Positions 29,741-53,324 of a DNA stretch of 64,000 nt are shown one piece after another. Location of the stretch: positions 258 through 64,257 of the forward strand of contig JAFGEK010000079.1 of assembly GCA_016931625.1 (NCBI GenBank), in the 5' to 3' direction. Source of the DNA: Deltaproteobacteria bacterium (lineage in GTDB: Bacteria > Myxococcota > XYA12-FULL-58-9 > JAFGEK01). The position numbers and the translations under genes are program-made. Each line of letters starts with the position of its first letter. Within the stretch, counting starts at the first letter, position 1. Under the pieces are notes generated by a model. That model was not told the origin of the DNA. It did no database searches and worked only from the letters and a program-made list of their open reading frames with translations.

Positions 29741-31402
29741 ATGAACCGCAAGACTACAATATTTTTTAGTTTATGTGCATTATTAGTTATTGCTGCAAAA
29801 GGCAATTCATGCACGCAAACCTGCGATACCAATGCTGATTGTGGAAAAGACAAATACTGCGCCAAAGTTGCTGAAGATTGTGCAGGCTCGGGGACGTGTG
29901 AAATACTGCCAACTATCTGTCCCAAAAATTATACTCCCGTATGTGGCTGTGATGGCAATGAATATAGCAATACCTGTTATGCAAATCGTCAGGGCGTAAA
30001 TGTTGCTTATGCGGGTGAGTGTAATACTGGAACTAACCCTGAAGCTTGTTTTAATAGCGAAAAATGTGGCGAAGGCAATTATTGCCTTTTTGCGAGTTGT
30101 GCTGCACAAACAGGTGAGTGTGCGAAACGCCCAGAAGCATGTTACGAAATTTACAGTCCAGTATGTGGCTGCGACGGCAAGACCTATAGCAACGATTGTT
30201 TCGCTGCGGGTGCGGGAATAAGTGTTGCTTATGATGGTGTGTGCGAAGGTGAAGTTGAAACCTGTTGGGACAATCAATCCTGTGGCCCCAAAGGCTATTG
30301 TAAGTTTGCTAGTTGTGCAGCAGAGACAGGAGTATGCCAAGCTCGGCCAGATGCTTGCTTAGATGAAGATAAAGCAGCAGTTTGCGGTTGTGACAATAAG
30401 ACATATAATAATGAATGTTTTGCTGCTATGGCGGGTGTACGTGTTGCCTATGAAGGTGAATGTAAAGTTGATCCCGACCCAGATCCAAAGACCTGTGGAA
30501 TTGATAAAAAATGTAACGAAGGTTTTTATTGTTTGCTAAATGAATGCAATGCCAACTCCGGCGTATGCGAAAAAATTCCAACAATTTGTCCGCTACAGAC
30601 AGATCCATTGCTTAAAGAAGATGTCTGTGGTTGCGATGGGATTAGCTATAAGAATTCATGTTTAGCAGCGGCCTCCGGTGTAAACATTGCGTATAAAGGT
30701 GAGTGCCAAACTGATCCCGATCCTGAGACCTGCAGGGATAACGAATTTTGTGGCATAAATCGTTATTGCAAGAAATCTAGTTGTGCTGCTGAATCAGGTT
30801 TGTGCAGTGACCAGCCCAGTAAAGATGATTGCAATGCTACTGATTATAAGCCGGTCTGCAGTTGCGAAGGTAATGATTATAATAACGAATGCTTAGCTGC
30901 AGCAGCTGGCGAAAATGTTGACTATGAAGGCAAATGCAAAACTGAACCACAAATTTGTTGGGAAGGTAATAAATGCCCCGAAGGTAACTACTGCCTATAC
31001 AACGCTTGTGGGGCAAAATCAGGTACGTGTACATTGCAACCAACTTATTGCCCAACTGTAAGAGAGCCGGTCTGTGGCTGCAATGGTGTTACTTATAGTA
31101 ATTCTTGTATAGCTGCTAATAAAGGCATGAGTATTGATTATAAAGGTGTTTGTGAAAGAGACCACTGCTTTAAAGTCGGTGAATGCGGCGAAGGTTTATA
31201 TTGTTATTTTGACTCTTGTGCTGCTGAAACCGGTAAATGCATAAAAGTTCCAACAGATTGTAAAAAACCAGCAAGACCAGTATGTGGTTGTGACTATAAT
31301 TTATACGACGATGAATGCCAAGCAGCAAACAAAGGCATTTCAATCGATTTAACAGGCATGCGATGCCTGCATTTTGAAAAGGGAATCAATATATTAGATT
31401 AG
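29741..31402 (+). CDS. secreted protein of seven tandem follistatin-like modules (N-terminal 4-Cys subdomain plus 6-Cys Kazal-type protease-inhibitor subdomain each)
   Basis: Signal peptide MNRKTTIFFSLCALLVIAAKG, with a GAGGGT Shine-Dalgarno 5 nt upstream of this ATG. Seven repeats of roughly 75 aa follow C..C..G.YC....C....G.C...P..C...Y.PVCGCDG.TY.N.C.A...G..VAY.G.C, i.e. 10 Cys per module with the Kazal core PVCGCDG.TY.N.C. Confidence 0.85.
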   Translation: MNRKTTIFFSLCALLVIAAKGNSCTQTCDTNADCGKDKYCAKVAEDCAGSGTCEILPTICPKNYTPVCGCDGNEYSNTCYANRQGVNVAYAGECNTGTNPEACFNSEKCGEGNYCLFASCAAQTGECAKRPEACYEIYSPVCGCDGKTYSNDCFAAGAGISVAYDGVCEGEVETCWDNQSCGPKGYCKFASCAAETGVCQARPDACLDEDKAAVCGCDNKTYNNECFAAMAGVRVAYEGECKVDPDPDPKTCGIDKKCNEGFYCLLNECNANSGVCEKIPTICPLQTDPLLKEDVCGCDGISYKNSCLAAASGVNIAYKGECQTDPDPETCRDNEFCGINRYCKKSSCAAESGLCSDQPSKDDCNATDYKPVCSCEGNDYNNECLAAAAGENVDYEGKCKTEPQICWEGNKCPEGNYCLYNACGAKSGTCTLQPTYCPTVREPVCGCNGVTYSNSCIAANKGMSIDYKGVCERDHCFKVGECGEGLYCYFDSCAAETGKCIKVPTDCKKPARPVCGCDYNLYDDECQAANKGISIDLTGMRCLHFEKGINILD

Positions 31403-31415
31403 TAAATTATTTCGC

Positions 31416-31450
31416 CTCTTAAGGTCTCTTCTCATATGAGACCTTAAGAG
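31416..31450. terminator. hairpin between convergent genes (13 bp perfect stem CTCTTAAGGTCTC / GAGACCTTAAGAG, 9 nt loop); likely bidirectional terminator
   Basis: Seen in the sequence. It lies between the stop of the Kazal gene (31402) and the stop of the Hsp20 gene (31476). The flanks are AT-rich on both sides, but there is no clean U-tract. Confidence 0.5.
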
Positions 31451-31458
31451 ACTAAAAG

Positions 31459-31479
31459 CTAGGGACACCCCCTAATTAT
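31459..31479. repeat. solo copy of the roughly 20 bp motif CTAGGGACACCCCCTAATTAT, related to the MITE terminal inverted repeat at 47.3 kb
   Basis: Shares AGGGACAC-N-CCCT-RAYTA with the sites at 35048, 46978, 47324 and 47521. Its TAATTA provides the stop codon of the Hsp20 gene. Confidence 0.6.
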
Positions 31480-34756: not shown

Positions 34757-35033
34757 AATGAAAGGCGATGATATAGCTGATAGACTGCTACTTTTTGCCG
34801 TAGATGTATTTAACTTGGCTTTTGAAAATACCACAAGATGTAGCAGGAAAACATTTATCGCGACAGCTTATACGTTAATCTACAGGCGGTGGCGCAAATT
34901 ATGAAGAAGCACGCGGTGCACTTAAGCAAAGCTGATTTTATACATAAGGTAAGCATCGCAGTTAAAGAATTACGAGAATCTTTGTATTGGCGTAAAATTG
35001 ATAAAACGAGCAAAGCTTTCAACATGTGTTAAA
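34757..35033 (+). pseudogene. frameshifted remnant of a four-helix-bundle (23S rRNA intervening-sequence-type) protein gene
   Basis: Frame 1 reads MKGDDIADRLLLFAVDVFNLAFENTTRCSRKTFIATAYTLIYRRWRKL*. A shifted frame continues ...GGGANYEEARGALSKADFIHKVSIAVKELRESLYWRKIDKTSKAFNMC*, which corresponds to the NIAEG...FI.FL.IA.GS..E..T.L blocks of that family. Confidence 0.5.
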
Positions 35034-35047
35034 CTTGACGAGCAACA

Positions 35048-35069
35048 TTTAGGGACACTCCCTAATTAC
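35048..35069. repeat. solo copy of the MITE-TIR-related motif TTTAGGGACACTCCCTAATTAC
   Basis: See 31459 and 47324. It lies in a roughly 1.1 kb stretch that otherwise holds only gene remnants. Confidence 0.6.
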
Positions 35070-35864: not shown

Positions 35865-35904
35865 CGAAGTAACAACCATCGCCTTAAGGCGATGGTTGTT
35901 ACTT
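35865..35904. other. perfect 18 bp-stem inverted repeat with 4 nt loop (GAAGTAACAACCATCGCC-TTAA-GGCGATGGTTGTTACTTC)
   Basis: Seen in the sequence. It lies 64 nt after the lipoprotein gene stop and overlaps the predicted start of ORF 35892. No U-tract follows. Confidence 0.6.
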
Positions 35905-36146
35905 CTGATAATATCAGATTACGTATCGCCGCAGTGCGAGCCTTGCGTTTTATACCAGGTCAAAAAACTGACAATATTATTGCGCAAGCAATGACTACTG
36001 AACCTAGCACCAGTGTACGACGTGCAGCTTTGTTAGCCGCATCATATCGAACCCGAAAACCATTAACCGAGGCTTTACAACAAGTTGCACGAAGCGATCC
36101 TAATGATGATATTCGCAAAGAAGCAGCTAAATTATTGCATGATTAG
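35892..36146 (+). pseudogene. probable C-terminal remnant of a HEAT/PBS-lyase-repeat protein
   Basis: The 84 aa product has roughly 2.5 HEAT-like repeats (...AAVRALRFIP..., DPNDDIRKEAAKLL). The start codon sits inside the hairpin, and an in-frame stop lies 30 nt upstream. Confidence 0.35.
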
Positions 36147-36467: not shown

Positions 36468-38918
36468 ATGAGTGCATCTATGAATGAGCCTGGCACTAAA
36501 CAGCTTACTCTACCGATTACCGGTATGACCTGCGCTAATTGTGTTGCTACTATTGAGCGTAATCTAAAAAAGCTTAACGGTGTAAATAGCGTGGTAGTAA
36601 ATCTTTCATCTGAACGTGCTACAGTAAGTTATGATGAAAGCAAACTTGCGCTGCAAGATTTTATAGCTCGTATTAAGCGTGCGGGTTATGGCATTGCTAC
36701 TGGTGAAGCCGAATTAATTATTAAAAACTTAGCGGATGATAGTGATGCACAGCGATTATTAAAAGCATTAAGTAGCACTAACGGAGTAGTAACTGCTCAA
36801 GTTAATTATGCCACTGAAAAAGCGCGCATCAAATATGTGCCAACAATTGTCAGCCAAGCACAATTGCGCCAGGTGGTTAAAGTTAACGGGTTTGCTGCTA
36901 TCGAACTTGGTGCAAAAGCCCAAGATATTGAGGCGCAAACGCGGGCGCTAGAAATTGCGCAACAAAAGCGATTGCTTATTGTTGGCTTGTTATTAACGGT
37001 ACCATTATTTCTTATTAGTATGGGGCGCGATTTTAATTTGTTGCCCATAATACCGACAGGGCCGTGGAGTAATTATCTTTTACTGGCATTGGCAACCCCG
37101 GTGCAATTTTACGTTGGTGCACAATATTATAGTGGCGCATATAAAGCACTACGCAATAAAGCCGCAAATATGGATGTACTCATCGCCATGGGTTCATCAG
37201 CAGCTTTCTTTTATTCGCTACCGGTAACTTTTGGATTGTTGCCGGGTCATGTTTATTATGAGACTGCGGCGGTTATCATCACCCTAATAAAACTTGGCAA
37301 ATATCTTGAGGCCCGTGCCAAAGGGCATGCCTTCGCAGCCATCAAAAAATTAATGGGATTACGCGCCAAGAGTGCACATGTGATTCGTGATGATAAAGAA
37401 GTCGAAGTGTTAATTGATGATGTGCAAGTTGGTGACATTGTTGTGGTTAAACCAGGAGAAAATATTCCGGTAGATGGTGTGCTGATTGCTGGGCAGAGTA
37501 GCGTGGATGAATCGATGTTAACCGGCGAATCGCTGCCAGTAACTAAAAAGCAAGGTAGCACGGTCATTGGTGCTACATTAAATAGACTGGGTACGTTGCA
37601 GTTTGAAGCTACTAAAGTTGGTAAAGAAGCAGCATTAGCGCAAATAATAAAACTAGTTCAAGATGCACAAGCCAGCAAAGCACCGATTCAAAAAATAGCT
37701 GATCAAGTATCGGCCATTTTTGTGCCAGTTGTATTAATTATTGCCGCAATAACTTTTAATGCTTGGTATTTTGTGGCGAGCACAGTTGATGGGCAATTTA
37801 CGCGTGCTTTAATTAATACGGTGGCAGTTTTAGTAATTGCCTGCCCGTGCGCTATGGGGTTAGCTACCCCAACGGCAGTATTAGTTGGTACTGGTAAAGC
37901 GGCACAAGCAGGGATACTGTTTCGCAATAGCGAGGCACTTGAACGCGCTGGTAAATTGTCAGTTGTGGTGTTTGATAAAACAGGTACGATTACCAAAGGT
38001 CTGCCAACTATTACTGATATTGTAGTTAATCAACATGCGACATTAAGCGCTGATACAATATTGCAATTTGCCGCTTCGGTAGAGTCGAGCAGTGAACATC
38101 CTTTGGCCGAGGCGATTTTGCAAGCAGCCAAAGCTCGTGGCTTAAAGTTATTAGAGGCTACTAGGTTTGAGGCCGAGCCTGGTTATGGGGTACTTGCTGA
38201 TGTTGATGGCAAAATCGTGGCTATTGGTAATTTTAAAATGATGCAAACTCACGATTGGCTGAAAAATGATCTTGCTTCTGAGGTTACTCGTTTGCAAGAC
38301 GAAGCCAAAACCGTGATGCTGGTAGCTATAGATGCTCAAGTTGCTGCTGCTATCGCTGTTGCTGATGTAGTAAAAGAAGACTCGCAAGCTGCAATCACCA
38401 AGTTGCGTGATATGGGTTTGCAAATACTAATGCTTACCGGTGATAATCAAAAAACTGCAGCAGCAATCGCCAATAAGATTGGTATTAGTAAAGTGATTGC
38501 CGAAGTAATGCCCGAGCATAAAACCCAGGCAATTAAAGATTTGCAAACAGCTAATGAAAATAAAAATATACCAAATATAGTTGCAATGGTGGGTGATGGA
38601 ATAAATGACGCGCCAGCTTTAGCCCAAGCCGATGTGGGTATTGCTATTGGTACCGGTACCGATGTCGCCATGGCTACGGCATCGGTGACGTTGATTAGCG
38701 GTAACCTGCATGGCGTAGCGCGGATGATAAATTTATCACGCCAAACTTTGCGCACAATTAAGCAAAATTTATTCTGGGCATTTTTTTATAACGTTGTGCT
38801 TATCCCCGCTGCAGCGCTGGGTTTTTTGCATCCAATGTTAGCCGCCGGCGCTATGGCTTTTAGTAGCGTGTTTGTGGTTAGCAATAGTTTAAGATTGCGG
38901 CGAGTGAAGTTGGGGTAG
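36468..38918 (+). CDS. copA: copper-translocating P1B-type ATPase with two N-terminal HMA domains
   Basis: [12 protein letters not shown] plus a second, degenerate HMA domain. CPC motif [10 protein letters not shown], phosphorylation site DKTGTIT, hinge [10 protein letters not shown]. Confidence 0.9.
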
Positions 38919-43380: not shown

Positions 43381-43590
43381 ATGAAAACCATTCGCCTTAT
43401 AACAGATATAGCCTGCGAAATGGACGAAGACGTTTTTGCCTTACTTGGTCGCATAGATTTTCATGTTTGTGACAACCATTATCTTGATGACCACGAACGT
43501 TTAGCAGCAATCGCTGTGCTACTGCGAGAATTTTTTGCTAAACGTGAGCGTTTACGTTGGGAGTTAATTAATCATTTTATCATCAAATAA
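43381..43590 (+). CDS. hypothetical protein
   Basis: ORF only. Confidence 0.3.
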   Translation: MKTIRLITDIACEMDEDVFALLGRIDFHVCDNHYLDDHERLAAIAVLLREFFAKRERLRWELINHFIIK

Positions 43591-44567
43591 TAACTAACGT
43601 TGCGTCCGGCGGTATGCGCACGTTGTTTAAGTAACCCGCGCTCGCGCATATCTAAAATTTCGCGTTTGGCAGTAGCAGGGCTGGTTTTTGTAAGATGTGC
43701 ATATTTTTTAGTTGTTAGACCACCAAAGAATTCATCGGGCCATGCATCGAATAGTCTATTTAATGCTTTTAGCTGTCGAGGGTTAAGACCAGTGGTCTCG
43801 CGGCGCTGCCAAAAACGAGCTTTAGCAAATATTCGCTCAAGTTCTTTTTCAGAACGAGCAATAGCTGCCGAAAAGGTTTCTAAAAACCAAATCAACCAAT
43901 CAGTAATATCACCTTTACCTTTTTGTGTTTTTTCTAAGATTTCATAATAGCTATCACGAGTAGCTTGTATCTGCGCAGATATGCTGTAGCAACGAATTTT
44001 TGTTTCTTCATCTTGAGCCAAAGCCATATCGATAAGCGTACGCGCAATACGACCATTACCATCTTCAAATGGGTGAATAGTTACAAACCATAAATGAGCT
44101 TTAGCCGCACGAATTAATCCATCTTCAACACTGCGGCTTTTTGCCCACCACAATAAAAACTGGCGTATCTCAGAAGGTACATTTTTTGAAGTTGGTGCTT
44201 CAAAATGAACACGTTCGTGACCTATTGGCCCTGAAACAACCTGCATTGGTGAAGCCGTTTTACGCCACTTGCCTACTGGAATTTGCTGCATGCCAGAGTA
44301 ACCAGTAGGAAACAGTGCGGCCTGCCATGCCTTAAGTCTGCTTGCCGTTAATGATTTATTACAGTTTGTGGTGGCATCTAATAAAACTTCCACTTGCCCA
44401 TCTGCATTTTTTTCAATGCGAGGTAAACCTGCAGTTTTTAAACCAAGACGACGTGTAATTGATGATCGCACAGCATTAGGATTAAGTGTTTCAACGTCTT
44501 TTACAAGAACGCGCTCGCTTAAAAGAACTAACGACTCTAAAAAAAATGAATGAGACCGCGCAGACAT
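43572..44567 (-). CDS. Fic/Doc-family protein with C-terminal wHTH
   Basis: Fic motif HPFEDGNGRIARTL. C-terminal ...TSPATAKREILDMRERGLLK... Confidence 0.85.
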   Translation of the reverse strand: MSARSHSFFLESLVLLSERVLVKDVETLNPNAVRSSITRRLGLKTAGLPRIEKNADGQVEVLLDATTNCNKSLTASRLKAWQAALFPTGYSGMQQIPVGKWRKTASPMQVVSGPIGHERVHFEAPTSKNVPSEIRQFLLWWAKSRSVEDGLIRAAKAHLWFVTIHPFEDGNGRIARTLIDMALAQDEETKIRCYSISAQIQATRDSYYEILEKTQKGKGDITDWLIWFLETFSAAIARSEKELERIFAKARFWQRRETTGLNPRQLKALNRLFDAWPDEFFGGLTTKKYAHLTKTSPATAKREILDMRERGLLKQRAHTAGRNVSYYLMIK

Positions 44568-44941
44568 TAAATCAGTTAGTTACGTTTTTAACAGAGGAAC
44601 GTCGCAATCGCGATGATGCTATTAAAGATATTTTAATATTTAACCACCCAGCATTTCGACGACTAGCGGATTTAACCCAAACAGAATACCGTATATTTTT
44701 TACTAATCTAGATGAATTGAGTATATGGCTTAAAAACGCCAAGGGATACTATGAGGATTGTAATACTAATACTTCGTATCGCTGGTGTAGGCTTGATAAA
44801 GGATGGCAATCTATTATTTCAGTTGACAAAGGATTATTTGATCAAAATGGTAAGCTTCAAAGTATGACTCCAGAGGAGTGGGATCAAAGTCTGATCATTT
44901 TAGAGAAGGAACAAACTGATGATGAAGATGCGCATTTTTAA
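44546..44941 (+). CDS. hypothetical protein
   Basis: ORF starting MNETAQTLNQ; the upstream Met at 44486 overlaps the Fic gene. No domain recognised. Confidence 0.35.
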   Translation: MNETAQTLNQLVTFLTEERRNRDDAIKDILIFNHPAFRRLADLTQTEYRIFFTNLDELSIWLKNAKGYYEDCNTNTSYRWCRLDKGWQSIISVDKGLFDQNGKLQSMTPEEWDQSLIILEKEQTDDEDAHF

Positions 44942-45032
44942 AAATTTGTTGTTCTCATCTAACGCGACTCCTACCGAACGGATAAATTAATTGACCCCGC
45001 TTCTTTTAGGTGCCAATGTGTCGATGCTAGTA

Positions 45033-46925
45033 TTATTTAATTGCAGACATTAATACAATCGCTAAATTTCTCTCTGGGCCACTGTGTACTAGTTTTACAA
45101 ATATTTTCAAATCATCATATTCGCGCGCTATTTTACGTTGCTGGTTGTAGGCCATGCCGCGCCAATAATAGGCATAGGCGGCCCTAGGATTCGCTTCGAT
45201 TACTGCGGTCATTTGCTCAATGGTTTCGTCAATCTTGCCGGATGCCATTAGGATCTCACCCAGTGCTTGGGCAGCAAGTGCATTACCAGAATTAGTCGCG
45301 AGTAACGACCTGGCTATAGCCTCGGCTTCTACATATTGCGCATGTTTTAGCTCTGGATCGGTTTCTTTGGAGGCATTTTTTACTAAAAGCACTGCCCAGC
45401 AGGCGCGCGCATGGTCATTGTTTGTTTCTTTAATAATTTTTTCTGCCAGGTTAATATCAATGGCCTCCCAGGTTTTATAGTATTCATAAAACTCAATATC
45501 CGTGGTCATATTGATCATAGTTTTAAGAAATTCGCCTTTAGTATAATCAGTACTTTTGGCACTAATAGCTTGCGCTAAGGTTATTGTATCTTGGCTTTGC
45601 CCCAAGGTTTTTGCAAACTCGACGAGCTGCCGGCTTGCAAGGCTTTCGGCCATCATGTTCATCAGGTCTTTTTTCTCATCAGCCGAGAGACCGCCAAAGC
45701 CTAATATGGCCTTGCTATTAATTTCTTTTGCCCAGTGCTGCAATTCTTCGTCGCTTAATGCGTCAAAAACTACGCGCTTTTCAACACGATTGAGACCATG
45801 CAAAATATCATTGATTTGCTTAAGTTCGTTGTGGGTCACATCAAAATTAAAAACGCCACTTTCATCAAGTAGCTCACGGATTTTTTTAACTGCTGCTTCG
45901 ACATTTTCGGATTTGCCGTTGCCCATACGTAGCATGGCAATAATTACATCAGCATCACTAAAGCCTGCGGCACGCCATGTATCTTCCATTCGATCAAAAG
46001 ACTCGGGGTCAATAAAACCGGTACTTTCATCTACAAGTTTAAGAATTTGCTCGCTTTCTTTGGCGGTTACGCCATCTTCAATCGATGCAAGTTTTGGTGT
46101 TATCTCGGCGTAGTTTGCTGTTGATAACGCATGTAATGGTGGTACGACTTGATCATCCACACGTCGTGGCAGATGGTCTTTGGCGCTTGTTAAGTTAGCT
46201 AGCGCAATGTTTTTAGTCCGTGTGCTATTGTCGATAAAAGTTTGCAATTCATCATCATTACTCTGGTCGGTGATTTTGTTTGTTGCATCATACATCTCAT
46301 CAATTGCATTAAGCGAACGCTGAAGTTCATCTTGCGCTTTTTGTGCCTGAGCTTGCGCTTCGAGTGCCTGCCTTTGCGCCTCTTCGGCCTCGTTTCTCAG
46401 TGCTTCATACTCCTGGCATGACACTTGCTGATTTTGTGGGTCATTGGGCAACGTTTCTTCGAACTTTTGTTGAGCTTGGGTAAGCTCGTCTTGAGCGTCA
46501 GCTAGCTCTTGTTGCCGTGCTGCAAGCTCGTTTTCTTTTTGGGCAAGCTCATTGCGTGCGCTGTCAATCTTTGCGCGTAAGCTTTGCAGTTTTTGTTGAT
46601 AATGCGTCATAGCTGCATTAAACGCGGCGGTATCAATAGTATTAATATTTATGCTGCGTGCATTGGGCGGCGAGCCTTCGCTGCGCGTCTCGGTCTTTTG
46701 AAAATTTGCTGGGTCAGGGATCTCTAAATCGGCAAACTCAGCCTCAAGTTGGGCAATAATTTGCTGAATCGAAGCAATATCGTCGATAAGCAGGGTAATC
46801 GCCGATGATAAACATGTAATCTTGTTGCTTGTAGCATCAGAGACTGCTTGTACAGTGTTTGCGTTAGGTACGTTTGGTACATTAGGTATTCTTTGATCGA
46901 TTGGAATAAAAGAACACATAATCAT
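45033..46925 (-). CDS. hypothetical coiled-coil / TPR-repeat protein (effector-like)
   Basis: N-terminal PNVPNVPNA repeat, long Gln/Glu-rich coiled coil, and C-terminal TPR-like helices (...AYAYYWRGMAYNQQRKIAREYDD...). Confidence 0.6.
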   Translation of the reverse strand: MIMCSFIPIDQRIPNVPNVPNANTVQAVSDATSNKITCLSSAITLLIDDIASIQQIIAQLEAEFADLEIPDPANFQKTETRSEGSPPNARSININTIDTAAFNAAMTHYQQKLQSLRAKIDSARNELAQKENELAARQQELADAQDELTQAQQKFEETLPNDPQNQQVSCQEYEALRNEAEEAQRQALEAQAQAQKAQDELQRSLNAIDEMYDATNKITDQSNDDELQTFIDNSTRTKNIALANLTSAKDHLPRRVDDQVVPPLHALSTANYAEITPKLASIEDGVTAKESEQILKLVDESTGFIDPESFDRMEDTWRAAGFSDADVIIAMLRMGNGKSENVEAAVKKIRELLDESGVFNFDVTHNELKQINDILHGLNRVEKRVVFDALSDEELQHWAKEINSKAILGFGGLSADEKKDLMNMMAESLASRQLVEFAKTLGQSQDTITLAQAISAKSTDYTKGEFLKTMINMTTDIEFYEYYKTWEAIDINLAEKIIKETNNDHARACWAVLLVKNASKETDPELKHAQYVEAEAIARSLLATNSGNALAAQALGEILMASGKIDETIEQMTAVIEANPRAAYAYYWRGMAYNQQRKIAREYDDLKIFVKLVHSGPERNLAIVLMSAIK

Positions 46926-46977
46926 CTCCAGAGTACGTATAGTCTACATTTTTTATACTCGTAAAAAAGAAGCTTAA

Positions 46978-46997
46978 CTAGGGATACCCCATAATAT
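46978..46997. repeat. degenerate solo copy of the MITE-TIR-related motif (CTAGGGATACCCCATAATAT), overlapping the start of ORF 46996
   Basis: See 31459 and 35048. Confidence 0.45.
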
Positions 46998-47292
46998 GTT
47001 TAGTATTATTTACCCAGATTACTTTGCTTTGGTTAACCATAAGACTGAGTTTTTATGTGTAAGTGGCGCCATCAGCGAAGAAGAGTATTTAGCGGGCTTG
47101 CAAAAAGCAGGGCTTGTTGATGTTGAAGTTCGCGATCGTCTTTTTTATGATGCTCCGCAAATTGAAGGATTAGCCGCATCTAATCTTGAAAATCTATGTG
47201 GCTGTGAAGATATTAAAGCACAATTACCCGCTTTATTGCTTAGTCTCGAAGGTAAAATCTGGAGCGCCAAGGTTTATGCGCATAAACCATAA
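46996..47292 (+). CDS. hypothetical protein
   Basis: ORF only. Confidence 0.35.
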   Translation: MFSIIYPDYFALVNHKTEFLCVSGAISEEEYLAGLQKAGLVDVEVRDRLFYDAPQIEGLAASNLENLCGCEDIKAQLPALLLSLEGKIWSAKVYAHKP

Positions 47293-47323
47293 GTCTTTTC
47301 TTTGTTTAATATTGTTTACATAA

Positions 47324-47540
47324 TCAGGGCGTGTCCCTAAATTAAATCGTCATTGTTCGCGAAAGCGGCAATCCAGTAGCAAATACGATGAATTTTAGCA
47401 TTTGGATCCTAAGCTTTCGCGGGGATGACATAAAAGACAATTAAATCAAAATTATTTATTTTGTAACGAAAAAATACATTATAACAATGAGTTAGAAGCA
47501 TCATTAAAAAACTATGAATCAATTTAGGGACACGCCCTGA
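47324..47540. mobile_element. 217 bp MITE-like non-autonomous element with perfect 20 bp terminal inverted repeats (TCAGGGCGTGTCCCTAAATT ... AATTTAGGGACACGCCCTGA)
   Basis: The terminal inverted repeats are exact reverse complements. There is an internal secondary inverted repeat (gtcattgttcgcgaaagc / gctttcgcggggatgac). It carries no ORF. It sits in the intergenic gap upstream of the GT9 gene. Confidence 0.75.
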
Positions 47541-47567
47541 CTAAATAAAAACATAGCCGCAGTCTAG

Positions 47568-48689
47568 TTGCTTACGTTATGGTGCTGCTTCGTGGATGAC
47601 AACGATAACAAATTGCACGGTCGTGAGGTCATTGTTCTTTTTGAGTTAGGCGCACTCGGCGACAGTATAATGACCTTACCGGCTATGCAGGCAGTGCGTT
47701 GTGCTCAACCACAAGCTCACATAGTACGCGTGCACGAAAAGCGTATGAGTGAATTTTTTCGCGGTTGCCCGTTAGCAGATGTTTTTATTGCTTATGATCG
47801 TTCGCAAGCAAAACAAAAAGCAGCCTTAAATTTATTAAATAACTTGCGAGCTTTAAATCTCGCCAGCATTGCTAATTTGCACACCCCAGATTTTGCGCGT
47901 CCGCTGCGTTATTATTTGCGTGATAGCTTGTTTCTATTGCTTTCTAAAGCACCACAAAGGCTCGCGTGGACGCATTCAATTGACAATCTGTTAATTACCG
48001 ATGGGATACCACGTAAGTTTTTTGGCCAACAGCGTATTGATCAAGAGATATTAGCCGTTGTGCAACCTTTAATAAAAAATACAAATATACAAACTACCGC
48101 AAAAGTTTTGTATTGGCTAAGCGATAACGAACGCGACGCCACCTTACATCTATATGCACAGCATGCAACTACTGCAGGCATAATGGCGGATCATCCATAT
48201 TTTTGTGTGGCACCTTTCGCACGAGCGCCAACGCGTGAATGGTCGCTGTCATCAATGGGGCAAGCGGTTGAGTTGATTGTCAAGCAAACCGGATTAATAC
48301 CGGTGATTTTAGGGGCGGCGTCCGATCGTTCAAAGTTATCAAGCCTACTAGAGCAAATTCATAAACCGGTTGTTGATCTTGTCGGTACTAGTTCAATTCG
48401 TGATGCAGCAACGCTTATGGCTAAAGCAACTTTTACTTTATCAGTAGATACGGGCTTGATGCATTTGTCAGCTCTAATGGGTACGCCGGTTGTCGCGATA
48501 TTTACTGCGGGTAACCCGGTGCGTTGGCATCCGTTACCACAAGCAGAAATTCGTATTGTTGCCGCTAATTGTACTTGCAGTCCATGCTATCGTTTTACCT
48601 GTGATGATTTATGTTGTCATAAAGAGATTACAACTACAATAGTTGCTCAAGCCGCGATTGAATGTTATCAACAGATTACTAGCGAATAA
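47568..48689 (+). CDS. glycosyltransferase family 9 (ADP-heptose:LPS heptosyltransferase-like)
   Basis: ...VIVLFELGALGDSIMTLPA... N-terminus and ...YFCVAPFARAPTREW... / ...SVDTGLMHLSALMGTPVVAIF... blocks typical of GT9. The start codon is uncertain (TTG or GTG). Confidence 0.75.
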   Translation: MLTLWCCFVDDNDNKLHGREVIVLFELGALGDSIMTLPAMQAVRCAQPQAHIVRVHEKRMSEFFRGCPLADVFIAYDRSQAKQKAALNLLNNLRALNLASIANLHTPDFARPLRYYLRDSLFLLLSKAPQRLAWTHSIDNLLITDGIPRKFFGQQRIDQEILAVVQPLIKNTNIQTTAKVLYWLSDNERDATLHLYAQHATTAGIMADHPYFCVAPFARAPTREWSLSSMGQAVELIVKQTGLIPVILGAASDRSKLSSLLEQIHKPVVDLVGTSSIRDAATLMAKATFTLSVDTGLMHLSALMGTPVVAIFTAGNPVRWHPLPQAEIRIVAANCTCSPCYRFTCDDLCCHKEITTTIVAQAAIECYQQITSE

Positions 48690-50812: not shown

Positions 50813-50979
50813 AAACGCCAACACATTTGGTAGAAGTCTTAAGCAAGGCAGCTTAAGTCTGCTCTAGGTGGGCCTTAATACCAAAGCGAATTATCGCAGG
50901 TATGGTGCTTGTGATATTCGTGATGGTTACGAGCCCATTTTTTTTTGTTTTTATTGCAGAGATTGAAAAGTGGTTTTAC

Positions 50980-51495
50980 GTGGGCGAAGAATTATCTATA
51001 CGTGCAGAAGTCGAGCGGGCGGTATCGCCTGTATTAGCAGGGCATGGCTATGAAGTTGTGCTTTGTGAATTTCTGCCACGTCAACATATTTTACGATTAT
51101 ATATCGATCGTGCTGATGGGCGTGCTGATGGGCGTGCTGATGGGCGTGCTGATGGGCGTGATAGCGGGGTCGGTGTAGAGGATTGCGCCCGTGTTTCTCG
51201 TCTCGTTGGCGATGTACTTGATGCAGAAGGTATATCAGATAATATTTCTGGTCGTTATCATTTAGAAGTATCATCACCTGGTCTTGACCGACCATTAGTA
51301 AAGCCTGCAGATTTTCGGCGTTTTATTGGGCAGAAGGTCAAAATAACTACACGGCAACCATTAGAGGGGCGAAAGCGTTTTAATGGTGAGCTAATAAGTT
51401 GTGATGCAAATAATATTAACGTAGCTATTGATGGCAATTTGTACGCCATTGCTTTTGAGCTTATTTTGCGCGCCAATTTGGTGCCAGAGCTTTAA
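50980..51495 (+). CDS. rimP: ribosome maturation factor RimP, with an in-frame tetrapeptide-repeat insertion
   Basis: Start set at GTG VGEELSIRAEVERAV. Conserved ...LEVSSPGLDRPL... and the C-terminal ...ANLVPEL are present. Lies upstream of nusA. Confidence 0.8.
   Translation: MGEELSIRAEVERAVSPVLAGHGYEVVLCEFLPRQHILRLYIDRADGRADGRADGRADGRDSGVGVEDCARVSRLVGDVLDAEGISDNISGRYHLEVSSPGLDRPLVKPADFRRFIGQKVKITTRQPLEGRKRFNGELISCDANNINVAIDGNLYAIAFELILRANLVPEL
51109..51156 (+). repeat. 12 bp tandem repeat x4 (cgtgctgatggg) encoding (RADG)4 inside rimP
   Basis: Seen in the sequence. Confidence 0.85.
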
Positions 51496-51593
51496 TCTAA
51501 ATGGGAGAGGTTTTGACTTAACGCTAATCACGTTGTGCTTAGAGCTACTTTTGTCAGGGGTTTAAGTACAGCGGGGGTCAAGGAGATGCGATC

Positions 51594-53324
51594 ATGTCAG
51601 ATGAGAACCTCACTACCGTTCTCGATGTGGTTAGCAAAGAGAAAGGAATAGACCGCAAGGTCTTAATCCAAGCTCTCGAAGAAGCAATTTTAGCCTCAGC
51701 AAAACGTGCTTTTGGCGCGGAGCGTAATCTTCTTGCGCAGTTTAACGCTGAGAAGGGTGCTGTTGATCTTACCCAGACGATTAAGGTCGTTGAAAATATT
51801 GAAGATGTATACAATGAAATAACCGTCGATGAATGCAGCCAACGCAATATTGATGTTGATCTTGGCGATGAGATGGTTTTTCCGATTTACTACCTTGATC
51901 AAGATGCTGCCGCCGCTCGTGAGCAAGATAATATGTATGGAGATATTTTACGGCTTAAAACTTATCGTCGAGGTTTTGGCCGTATCGCTGCACAAACCGC
52001 TAAACAAGTTATTATTCAACGCATTCGTGATGCTGAACGCAATATAGTATATACCGAGTATAAAGACAGAAAAGGCGAATTAGTTACGGGTATAGTTCGT
52101 CGTTTTGAACGTGGTAATATTATTGTTGATTTAGGGCGAGCCGAGGCAGTTATGCCCATGCGTGAGCAAGTGCCGCGTGAGTCATATCGTGCTGCAGATC
52201 GTATTCAAGCATATGTTATTGAAGTTCAAGAGCATGCACGTGGGCCACAGATTGTGCTATCGCGTACATGTCCAGAGCTATTAGTGAAACTTTTTGAGCT
52301 TGAAGTGCCTGAAATTTATGAAGGTATTGTTAAAATTGAAAGCGCCGCACGTGAGCCAGGCGCTAGAGCCAAGATTGCCGTTTCGTCTACCGATCGCGAT
52401 GTTGATCCCGTTGGTGCGTGTGTTGGTATGAAAGGTTCACGGGTGCAAGCAGTAGTTCAAGAGCTTCGCGGTGAAAAAATCGATATTGTCCCTTATAGTG
52501 AGGATCCTGCAACTTTCGTATGCAATGCCCTACAACCTGCTGAAGTCAGCCGCGTTCTTATTGATGAAGGCAATCATGCCATGGAAATTATTGTTCCTGA
52601 TGATCAGCTTTCATTAGCCATTGGCCGTAAAGGGCAAAATGTGCGTTTAGCTTCACAGTTAACCGGATGGCGACTCGATATTCACTCTGAATCACGTATA
52701 GCTGAAATAAAAGATAAAGCCTGGAAGTCATTATCTAGAGTAGATGGTCTTAATGAGTTTTTAATTCAAACTTTATACAATCATGGTATTCGTTCAGCAC
52801 AACAATTATTTGATTCACAGCATGATTTTCTTATGCAATTCCCCGGAATGGATGATGGTTTGCTTGATAGTGTGTTGGCTAGCGCCAAGCAGATTGCTGC
52901 TGAAGAAAAAGAAAGTGAAGAAAATGCTCGTGTTGATGCTGAACGCGCGCAAAAAGCAGTTGATGCAGCTAAACGTTTGCAAGAAATCCTTGGCCTTGAT
53001 GATCTTGGCCGTTTGCAAAAAGTACGCGGAGTCGGTGAGTCTATGTTGAAGCAGTTGCAAGATACTGGTTTTATCAAAGTTGAAGAAATTGCCGATGCGT
53101 CAGTTGAAGATTTAGCAGAAAAACTTTCAATTAGTGAGAGCAAAGCAAAACAACTCAAGTATGCTGCCTCGCAATGGCTAAAAGAAGAGAATGATATTCG
53201 TAGTACTGCTGATGAACTTGGTATCAGTGTTGAAGACGGTATTGCCAAATTAACCTCATTAACCACTGACGTGAGTAAAAACAAAGAGCAATCGCAGTCT
53301 GAAGTCTCTGGTAGTCCTGCGTAA
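51594..53324 (+). CDS. nusA: transcription termination/antitermination factor NusA with extended C-terminal region
   Basis: N-terminal domain, S1, KH1 and KH2 regions (...GMKGSRVQAVVQEL...) are present. It is about 80 aa longer than E. coli NusA. Confidence 0.9.
   Translation: MSDENLTTVLDVVSKEKGIDRKVLIQALEEAILASAKRAFGAERNLLAQFNAEKGAVDLTQTIKVVENIEDVYNEITVDECSQRNIDVDLGDEMVFPIYYLDQDAAAAREQDNMYGDILRLKTYRRGFGRIAAQTAKQVIIQRIRDAERNIVYTEYKDRKGELVTGIVRRFERGNIIVDLGRAEAVMPMREQVPRESYRAADRIQAYVIEVQEHARGPQIVLSRTCPELLVKLFELEVPEIYEGIVKIESAAREPGARAKIAVSSTDRDVDPVGACVGMKGSRVQAVVQELRGEKIDIVPYSEDPATFVCNALQPAEVSRVLIDEGNHAMEIIVPDDQLSLAIGRKGQNVRLASQLTGWRLDIHSESRIAEIKDKAWKSLSRVDGLNEFLIQTLYNHGIRSAQQLFDSQHDFLMQFPGMDDGLLDSVLASAKQIAAEEKESEENARVDAERAQKAVDAAKRLQEILGLDDLGRLQKVRGVGESMLKQLQDTGFIKVEEIADASVEDLAEKLSISESKAKQLKYAASQWLKEENDIRSTADELGISVEDGIAKLTSLTTDVSKNKEQSQSEVSGSPA

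What the first reader, a model, noticed from the sequence alone, without database searches (positions are those of the whole stretch)
47324..47540. 217 bp MITE with perfect 20 bp terminal inverted repeats
TCAGGGCGTGTCCCTAAATT at 47324-47343 is the exact reverse complement of 47521-47540. The 177 bp core is AT-rich, non-coding and contains a second internal inverted repeat. The element sits between a small hypothetical gene and a GT9 glycosyltransferase gene. No transposase gene is present in the window, so it is a non-autonomous element that a transposase encoded elsewhere would have to mobilise. The target-site duplication is ambiguous (TAA precedes the left end).
Basis: seen in the sequence. 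Interest (0 to 1): 0.65.

Follow-up and report, generated by a model that had tools for sequence, protein, structure and literature searches.

The report
Transposase-less mini-transposon with IS5-type ends
This is an ordinary 217-bp non-coding remnant of a mobile element, sitting just upstream of a sugar-transferase gene, whose ends are identical to those of a widespread family of small bacterial jumping genes (IS5 family, IS427 type).

Summary
47324-47343 is the exact reverse complement of 47521-47540. The arms enclose a 177-bp core (31% GC) with no ORF longer than 37 aa and a nested hairpin.

The inner 17 nt of each arm, GGGCGTGTCCCTAAATT, are the terminal inverted repeat of IS5-family insertion sequences. 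Complete copies elsewhere are 823 bp (L021) and 839 bp (L057). L057 has a two-ORF, frameshifted DUF4096 + DDE_Tnp_1 transposase. Both copies are flanked by TA, as in the IS427 group. The same ends bound many transposase-less elements of 90-520 bp in other genomes, including true multi-copy MITE families.

The MITE reading is therefore essentially right, with four caveats:
- The outer three bases (TCA/TGA) are flank, not element.
- The canonical TA duplication is missing (CA...TG).
- The 177-bp core matches nothing retrieved.
- Copy number and a parent IS in the host genome could not be tested. The host is an NCBI "Deltaproteobacteria bacterium" MAG that was absent from the searchable collections.

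The window also holds two or three solo relics of the same end (35046, 31457, and possibly 46979), so the family has visited this genome more than once. This is a new member of a known kind, of low interest.

The parts
47324..47343 (+). Left arm of the 20-nt perfect inverted repeat. The IS-type terminal inverted repeat proper is 47327-47343 (GGGCGTGTCCCTAAATT). 47324-47326 (TCA) is in the flank position.
47521..47540 (-). Right arm. The TIR proper is 47521-47537, and 47538-47540 (TGA) is in the flank position.
47344..47520 (.). 177-bp core at 31% GC. It has no ORF longer than 37 aa, no Rfam match, and no homologue in any fetched locus, in the rest of the window or in PLSDB plasmids.
47349..47429 (.). 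Nested imperfect inverted repeat (GTCATTGTTCGCGAAAGC ... GCTTTCGCGGGGATGAC) that forms the inner stem of the predicted fold. Its left half (CGTCATTGTTCGCGAAAGCGGCAATCCAG) resembles a hairpin next to a solo TIR in L006.
47478..47486 (-). TGTTATAAT on the minus strand, an extended -10-like sequence about 45 nt inside the right TIR. This is where the L021 and L057 sequences show promoter-like -10 motifs ahead of the transposase start (my reading). It was read by eye and was not called by the promoter scan.
   Evidence: inference
35046..35065 (-). Solo end of the same family: TTA|GGGAGTGTCCCTAAATG, 15 of 17 TIR positions, with the canonical TTA flank. No partner was found within 1.1 kb upstream.
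31457..31478 (-). More degenerate solo end (14 of 17 TIR positions, TTA flank), between a + strand ORF ending at 31402 and minus-strand ORFs read by eye downstream.
46979..46994 (+). Weak third relic of the core motif (TAGGGATACCCCATAA, 2 mismatches to the motif pattern), directly before the start codon of the 98-aa ORF. Membership is doubtful.

Best explanation
The feature is a non-autonomous, MITE-type derivative of an IS5-family insertion sequence of the IS427 type. Its two 17-nt ends (GGGCGTGTCCCTAAATT) are the sequences that this lineage's DDE transposase (DUF4096 DNA-binding domain plus a DDE_Tnp_1 catalytic domain) uses as element ends in complete copies. The element keeps the ends and has no transposase, so it could move only if a cognate transposase were supplied in trans. 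That enzyme would cut at the GGG ends and insert at YTAR sites, duplicating TA. Shown: identity of the ends with transposase-bearing IS and with bona fide MITE families; absence of a transposase gene in the window. Inferred: mobilisation in trans; origin by internal deletion or replacement. At this site the element sits 27-51 nt upstream of the possible GT9 start codons. If transcribed it would fold into a very stable hairpin (-70 kcal/mol, z = -9). It is therefore likely to affect the transcript of the GT9/PMT-type glycosyltransferase genes, as shown for other MITEs such as Correia elements. That effect is inference only. Because the TA duplication is missing and the core has no relatives, the copy may well be an immobile fossil.
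For: The 18-mer AGGGCGTGTCCCTAAATT gave 20 loci in GTDB species genomes and 47 in metagenome contigs. In these loci the sequence upstream of the motif varies while the sequence inside is conserved. A transposase lies directly inside the motif in several loci. L057 is a complete 839-bp IS with two exact TIRs and two frameshifted ORFs. L021 is a complete 823-bp IS at 38% GC. In L003 the stop codon lies inside the TIR. L043, L022, L042/L056, L012, L015 and L009 also carry transposase sequence next to the motif. The L057 transposase matches PF13340 (E = 2.8e-26), PF01609 (E = 2.5e-23) and NCBIfam NF033580 'IS5 family transposase' at 284 bits against a cutoff of 110. The size, 2-bp duplication and two frameshifted ORFs match IS427-group elements captured experimentally (PMC3281130, Table 2). 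Fourteen of about 23 paired-TIR elements are flanked by TA...TA. Of 62 non-redundant ends, 69% have T at -2 and 82% have C or T at -3, giving a YTA|GGG flank. Transposase-less elements with both TIRs span 90-518 bp. They include multi-copy families: a ~95-bp family with about eight members at 83-95% identity to one another, a ~250-bp family, and the L060/L046/L058 family. The window contains no IS5-type transposase. It does contain two to three further solo ends; the core motif occurs five times against 0.05 expected.
Against: The flanks are CA...TG, not TA...TA. Only 6 of 62 ends elsewhere have CA. Nothing beyond the 17-nt ends aligns with any IS or MITE retrieved. No second full copy exists in the 64-kb window. 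The exact 20-mer is absent from JGI metagenomes and the 18-mer from IMG/VR. The host genome was not in the searchable collections, so copy number and presence of a cognate IS are unknown. A k=31-based Logan contig runs straight through the element, which argues against many identical copies in that sample; this rests on my understanding of how Logan assembles. About 17 chance hits are expected for an 18-mer in 596 Gb. Some single hits and the Coriobacteriaceae palindromes are probably unrelated.
Confidence: 0.8

Rival explanations
1. The feature is two independent solo ends. Two separate IS copies once flanked about 177 bp of native intergenic DNA, and each later lost everything except its outward-facing terminus. 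On this view it was never a single mobile unit.
For: Solo ends do exist in this window (35046, 31457). The core has no relatives and is AT-rich like local intergenic DNA. There is no TA...TA duplication.
Against: It needs two insertions and two precise deletions that leave two error-free 17-nt ends in exactly the IRL...IRR configuration. Transposase-less elements in the same 90-520 bp size range and the same configuration are common for this TIR elsewhere.
Confidence: 0.08
2. The feature is a REP doublet (REPIN or BIME-like) mobilised by a RAYT (IS200/IS605-type) enzyme, and the solo motifs are decayed singlets.
For: Each arm contains its own small palindrome (TYAGGG-N5-CCCTRA). The window shows a pattern of singlets plus one doublet.
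Against: The arm is identical over 17-18 nt to the ends of DDE-type IS5-family elements that carry the transposase inside and have TA duplications. The 177-nt spacer is much longer than in REPINs (my knowledge). No RAYT gene was noticed in the window, but none was specifically searched for.
Confidence: 0.03
3. The feature is a locally evolved regulatory palindrome or structured RNA (operator, terminator/attenuator or RNase III site) for the GT9 operon, with no origin in a transposable element.
For: It lies just upstream of GT9. The predicted fold is very stable on both strands (z = -9.1 and -8.7).
Against: The arms are exactly identical to an IS terminus found across several phyla, which cannot be coincidence. 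There is no Rfam match. No terminator-like site was called in the element. The closest GT9 homologues have a different upstream gene and give no evidence that such a structure is conserved; their DNA was not inspected for the arms. Exaptation of the MITE for regulation is not excluded, but that is an addition to the main explanation rather than a rival.
Confidence: 0.03

Closest known systems
IS427 group of the IS5 family (e.g. IS427, IS1248, ISPaes1/2; Dziewit et al. 2012, PMC3281130)
   Same: The complete elements that carry exactly these ends (L057 at 839 bp, L021 at 823 bp) match the group on several counts. They fall close to the 832-865 bp size range, have 13-21-nt inverted repeats that start with GGG, and duplicate 2 bp (TA). 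L057 has two overlapping ORFs joined by a frameshift, and its product contains DUF4096 and DDE_Tnp_1. Annotated plasmid relatives have similar ends (B. cereus CTA|GGGTGTGTCTAAAAACT...|TAG).
   Different: The window element has only the ends. It has no transposase, is 217 bp long and lacks the TA...TA duplication. ISfinder could not be queried, so the subgroup assignment rests on architecture rather than on a named nearest IS.
Bacterial MITEs in general, e.g. Neisseria Correia elements (my knowledge)
   Same: It is small, AT-rich, non-coding, bounded by TIRs and intergenic, close to a gene start. Relatives insert at TA. If transcribed it would form a long hairpin. In Correia elements such hairpins are RNase III substrates, and the elements can supply promoters.
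   Different: Correia elements are present in hundreds of copies and have no known parent IS. Here the parent IS family is clear, but the copy number in the host is unknown and possibly one. No effect on expression was tested.
MITE families with the identical TIR found here in other genomes (~95-bp and ~250-bp Polyangiales-type families; L060/L046/L058 family)
   Same: They have the same 17-nt ends, the same IRL...IRR configuration, a comparable size range and no transposase.
   Different: Those families are multi-copy, are flanked by TA and share internal sequence, including subterminal GTGCCC/GTAAAC hexamer arrays. The window element shares nothing internal with them.
REPIN / BIME (REP doublets mobilised by RAYT)
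   Same: Inverted pairs of a short motif that is itself palindromic, accompanied by singlets.
   Different: The ends belong to a DDE-type IS. The spacer is 177 nt. No RAYT was noticed in the window.

Membership tests
MITE | Small size (roughly 50-600 bp) | tested here: met
   217 bp including flank bases, or 211 bp from TIR to TIR.
MITE | Terminal inverted repeats | tested here: met
   A 20-nt perfect inverted repeat, of which 17 nt are element sequence.
MITE | No transposase coding capacity | tested here: met
   ORFs within the element are 32 and 37 aa. tblastn with IS5-type transposases gave no hit anywhere in the window.
MITE | TIRs match those of an autonomous IS that could supply transposase | tested here: met
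   The TIR is identical to the ends of complete ISs L057 and L021 and to transposase-adjacent ends in L003, L043, L022 and L042. This was shown only in other genomes, not in the host.
MITE | Target-site duplication of the kind made by the parent IS | tested here: not met
   TA...TA is expected (14 of about 23 paired elements; 43 of 62 ends). The window has CA...TG.
MITE | Multiple dispersed copies in the host genome | not testable with these tools
   The host MAG is absent from genome contigs. There is one full copy in 64 kb plus two to three solo ends. The exact 20-mer is absent from JGI metagenomes. ORF look-ups found nothing.
MITE | Polymorphic presence/absence (empty site) in relatives | tested here: inconclusive
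   The only other contig carrying this locus is the same organism and is identical. The next GT9 homologues (59% and 53% identity) are not syntenic.
IS5 family / IS427 group (parent lineage of the ends) | DDE transposase with DUF4096 N-terminal domain and DDE_Tnp_1 domain | tested here: met
   The L057 transposase matches PF13340, PF01609 and NF033580 above cutoff. The L006 transposase, whose own left end is only related (GGGCGTGTTGACATTT), matches the same models.
IS5 family / IS427 group (parent lineage of the ends) | Length about 800-1000 bp, two ORFs joined by frameshift, 2-bp duplication | tested here: met
   L057 is 839 bp with two ORFs and TA...TA. L021 is 823 bp with TA...TA and an interrupted reading frame. 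Reference values are in PMC3281130 Table 2.
IS5 family / IS427 group (parent lineage of the ends) | Nearest named IS in ISfinder belongs to the IS427 group | not testable with these tools
   ISfinder is not available. The closest annotated plasmid transposases (44-48% identity) are named only 'IS5 family transposase'.
REPIN / REP-RAYT | Associated RAYT (Y1 transposase) gene and a REP motif with a conserved 5' GTAG-type tetranucleotide | not tested
   No RAYT search was made. The motif lacks a GTAG-type start by inspection, and its ends belong to a DDE-type IS.

The most novel reading that the evidence does not exclude
The element has been exapted. It was immobilised (no TA duplication) and retained just upstream of the GT9/PMT-type glycosyltransferase genes. 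On this reading its 20-bp stem and inner hairpin act as an RNA processing or stability signal. Alternatively, it encodes a short minus-strand transcript, running from the TGTTATAAT at 47486-47478 to the hairpin plus T-rich tract at 47429-47339, that regulates envelope glycosylation. A related possibility is that the perfect 20-nt arms, including the non-canonical C/G in the flank, were produced by quasi-palindrome correction (template switching).
Probability: 0.08. Interest if true: 0.4.

Novelty: new member of a known kind. Interest (0 to 1): 0.22.

Why it matters
It matters little beyond annotation. It adds a transposase-less derivative of an IS427-type element to an uncultured low-GC MAG. 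It also shows that one 17-nt end sequence is shared by ISs and MITEs across Myxococcota-type, Chloroflexota, cyanobacterial and proteobacterial genomes. For this locus the practical point is that the promoter and 5'-UTR region of a GT9 heptosyltransferase-like gene has been rearranged by a mobile element, which may alter expression of envelope glycosylation genes. Because the TIR is exact and diagnostic, it could serve as a search key for this IS lineage and its MITEs.

Tried and rejected
These searches and ideas led nowhere or were set aside:
- Rfam scan of 46500-48500 at E <= 1 gave no match.
- The promoter and terminator scan found nothing convincing inside the element. There were only two weak + strand promoter-like sites and no terminator.
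- The exact 20-mer gave 0 hits in JGI metagenomes. The 18-mer gave 0 hits in IMG/VR.
- The element gave no match against PLSDB plasmids by blastn.
- The inner 177 bp matched nothing in the 74 loci or the rest of the window, apart from an 18-nt hairpin piece in L006.
- Alignment of the subterminal regions with the IRL and IRR regions of L021, L057, L006 and L051 showed nothing conserved beyond the TIR.
- Exact look-ups of the 32-aa and 37-aa internal ORFs found nothing on record.
- The empty-site test failed. The only other contig is the same organism and identical. The P0002 and P0003 loci are not syntenic.
- The MITE has not truncated GT9. Its N-terminus aligns with homologues.
- I suspected that four-helix-bundle genes are regular passengers of these elements. 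phmmer and a signature search found none in the 67 loci, apart from a 33-aa fragment in L013 that I recognised by eye. The idea was dropped as a general claim.
- The Coriobacteriaceae RUG11201 hits are 64-bp terminator-like palindromes with the motif in reversed polarity and with compensatory variants. I judged them unrelated or chance matches.
- A literature search for the TIR string returned only unrelated papers.
- No 2-bp or 3-bp target duplication can be read at any choice of element boundary.

Full report
**Observation**

The sequence is as described. TCAGGGCGTGTCCCTAAATT at 47324-47343 is the exact reverse complement of 47521-47540.
- No shuffle of the window produced even a 3-mismatch match to the 20-mer.
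- Among perfect inverted repeats with arms up to 600 nt apart, this and a spacerless palindrome at 35866-35905 are the longest in the window, at 20 nt. Thirty block-shuffles reached at most 17 nt.
- The 177-bp core is 31% GC against 39% for the window. ORFs overlapping the element are 45 aa or shorter, and the two that lie within it are 32 and 37 aa. It has no Rfam match at E <= 1.
- The core contains a nested imperfect inverted repeat, 47349-47366 with 47413-47429, which forms the inner stem of the predicted fold. The fold is -70 kcal/mol with z = -9.1 on the + strand, and z = -8.7 on the other strand.
- A Logan assembly of run SRR13394437 carries the same 98-aa ORF and GT9 gene and is identical over the 451 nt aligned across the element. 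The structure is therefore not an assembly artefact.

**What the arms are**

I scanned one genome per GTDB species for AGGGCGTGTCCCTAAATT and found 20 loci. The same scan of metagenome contigs found 47. The host genome itself was not among them. The GT9 protein is recorded at NCBI from a 'MAG: Deltaproteobacteria bacterium' contig of 75,542 bp.

In nearly all hits the motif marks a boundary. The sequence outside it differs from locus to locus, and the sequence inside it is shared within families. An IS5-type transposase lies directly inside the motif in many loci (tblastn).
- L057 is complete: 839 bp, two exact 17-nt ends in inverted orientation, and two overlapping ORFs joined at a frameshift. 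The last codons and the stop (CGA ATT TAG) lie within the right end.
- L021 is a complete 823-bp copy in a contig of 38% GC.
- In L003 (Chondromyces apiculatus) the stop codon also lies inside the end.
- The L057 protein matches PF13340 (DUF4096), PF01609 (DDE_Tnp_1) and NCBIfam NF033580 'IS5 family transposase' at 284 bits against a cutoff of 110.

Length, a 2-bp duplication and the two-ORF frameshift architecture are the features of IS427-group elements captured experimentally in Paracoccus (PMC3281130, Table 2: 832-865 bp, IR 13-21 bp, DR 2 bp). Annotated plasmid relatives, with transposases about 44-48% identical, have similar ends and flanks. An example is CTA|GGGTGTGTCTAAAAACT...|TAG in a B. 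cereus plasmid.

**Target site**

Among about 23 elements with both ends present, 14 are flanked by TA|GGGCG...CGCCC|TA. Over 62 non-redundant ends, T occupies -2 in 69% and C or T occupies -3 in 82%. The element proper therefore starts at GGG, TA is duplicated, and the preferred site is YTAR.

This re-reads the window element. Its TIR is 17 nt (47327-47343 and 47521-47537). The outer TCA/TGA are flank bases that happen to be mutually complementary. Given the invariant A/T at the innermost flank position, that has about a 1 in 16 chance.

The flanks here are CA...TG, not TA...TA. No alternative boundary yields a direct repeat. CA occurs at 6 of 62 ends elsewhere, so it is unusual but not unique. 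I cannot explain the symmetric C/G. One mutation followed by quasi-palindrome correction is possible but untested.

**Non-autonomous relatives**

The same ends bound many transposase-less elements: 90-101 bp, 156-163 bp, 232-268 bp and 447-518 bp. Some still contain the first roughly 60 codons of the transposase (L015), which shows origin by internal deletion.

Several are true multi-copy families at different loci:
- a ~95-bp family (L010, L032, L037, L041, L047, L048, L053) at 83-95% identity to one another;
- a ~250-bp family (L016, L027, L064, L039);
- a family in one metagenome (L060, L046 twice, L058).

This IS lineage therefore produces MITEs repeatedly, and the window element fits their size range and configuration.

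**What remains weak**

The 177-bp core of the window element has no relative anywhere I could look. That includes the other loci, the rest of the window and the plasmid collection. The single exception is a hairpin piece, GCGAAAGCGG(C/G)AATCCAG preceded by CGTCATT..CGCGA. It also lies next to a solo end in L006, a Gammaproteobacteria MAG at 42% GC.

There is no IS5-type transposase in the window. Copy number in the host could not be measured. The Logan contig, built from 31-mers as I understand Logan assembly, passes through the element without breaking. That argues against many identical copies in that sample. The element may therefore be a single fossil.

The family has nevertheless hit this genome repeatedly. 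A solo end at 35046-35065 matches 15 of 17 positions and has the canonical TTA flank. A more degenerate one lies at 31457-31478, and a doubtful one at 46979-46994. The core motif TAGGGACACNCCCTRA occurs five times in the window against 0.05 expected.

**Likely consequences at this site (inference)**

The element ends 27 nt before the first possible GT9 start (TTG 47568) and 51 nt before the annotated one (GTG 47592). The GT9 N-terminus aligns with homologues, so the gene is intact. GT9 must therefore be transcribed either through the element or from within it.

- The scan found only weak + strand promoter-like sites.
- On the minus strand there is an extended -10-like TGTTATAAT (47486-47478) about 45 nt inside the right end. 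The L021 and L057 sequences show promoter-like -10 motifs at the corresponding place ahead of the transposase start, by my reading. This suggests that the right end corresponds to the transposase-proximal IRL.
- Read-through RNA would form a 20-bp stem. In other MITEs (Correia elements, my knowledge) such stems are RNase III substrates.
- None of this was tested.

**Rivals**

- Two independent solo ends enclosing native DNA is possible but less parsimonious.
- A REP/RAYT doublet is contradicted by the DDE-type IS that owns these ends.
- A locally evolved regulatory palindrome is contradicted by the exact identity of the arms with an IS terminus found across phyla.
- Some hits to the 18-mer are probably chance or unrelated. 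About 17 chance hits are expected in 596 Gb. The clearest case is the set of 64-bp terminator-like palindromes in Coriobacteriaceae RUG11201, which carry the motif in reversed polarity and show compensatory variants.

**Verdict**

This is a MITE-type, transposase-less derivative of an IS5-family (IS427-type) insertion sequence. Its multi-copy status and current mobility are untested, and it lacks the canonical TA duplication. It is a new member of a known kind and is ordinary.

Noticed in passing
window 34759-35030 (+), with solo TIR at 35046-35065: A frameshifted pseudogene of a four-helix-bundle / 23S rRNA intervening-sequence protein (PF05635 at E = 8e-10, TIGR02436 at E = 3e-14 on a stitched translation) ends 15 nt before the solo IS end. 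It is preceded by a GGGGACGGGGAA repeat. A 33-aa fragment that looks like the same kind of protein lies inside a TIR-bounded element in L013, but no other locus showed one.
   Followed up: partly
window 35866-35905: A perfect 40-bp spacerless palindrome (GAAGTAACAACCATCGCCTT|AAGGCGATGGTTGTTACTTC), followed by a second small palindrome (CTGATAATATCAG). It lies between a DUF4377 gene and an 84-aa ORF, upstream of a heavy-metal P-type ATPase (36468-38918). Its function is unknown.
   Followed up: no
window 31416-31478: A hairpin with 13-nt arms (CTCTTAAGGTCTC...GAGACCTTAAGAG), followed by a degenerate copy of the IS end. It lies downstream of a + strand ORF ending at 31402; the next stretch appears by eye to hold minus-strand ORFs.
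   Followed up: partly
window 46996-47292: The 98-aa ORF upstream of the element has no Pfam hit. A weak copy of the TIR core motif sits directly before its start codon (46979-46994). It may be a gene fragment rather than a real gene.
   Followed up: partly
L006:850-980 (-) and L006:5843-6755 (-): A Gammaproteobacteria MAG (STL-PRO51, 42% GC) has a solo exact TIR followed by the hairpin CGTCATTCCCGCGA...GCGAAAGCGGGAATCCAG, which resembles the subterminal hairpin of the window element. Elsewhere it has a single-ORF IS5-family transposase with a related but different left end (GGGCGTGTTGACATTT).
   Followed up: partly
L010, L032, L037, L041, L047, L048, L053 and L016, L027, L064, L039 (high-GC, Polyangiales-type contigs): These MITE families carry the identical TIR. 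Their interiors consist largely of inverted arrays of hexamers (GTGCCC, GTAAAC, GTGAAC). The same arrays lie between the TIR and the transposase start in longer copies. They may be subterminal binding sites; this is unexplained.
   Followed up: partly
L005, L008, L017, L019, L020 (Coriobacteriaceae RUG11201): A dispersed 64-bp palindrome, GGCAATTWAGGGACACGCCCTTTTTTGCCCCGCGGGGCAAAAAAGGGCGTGTCCCTAAATTGCC. It carries the 18-mer in reversed polarity around a bidirectional-terminator-like centre. Variant copies show compensatory changes in both arms.
   Followed up: partly
L057, L021, L043, L003, L022, L042: Transposases that sit inside 17-nt ends that are identical or differ by a single mismatch are only about 30-50% identical to one another. 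This is unusually strong conservation of the ends relative to the enzyme.
   Followed up: no
window 43572-46925 (-): A Fic-domain protein (PF02661) and a 630-aa coiled-coil/TPR protein lie immediately upstream of the locus. rimP and nusA follow downstream at 50902-53324.
   Followed up: no
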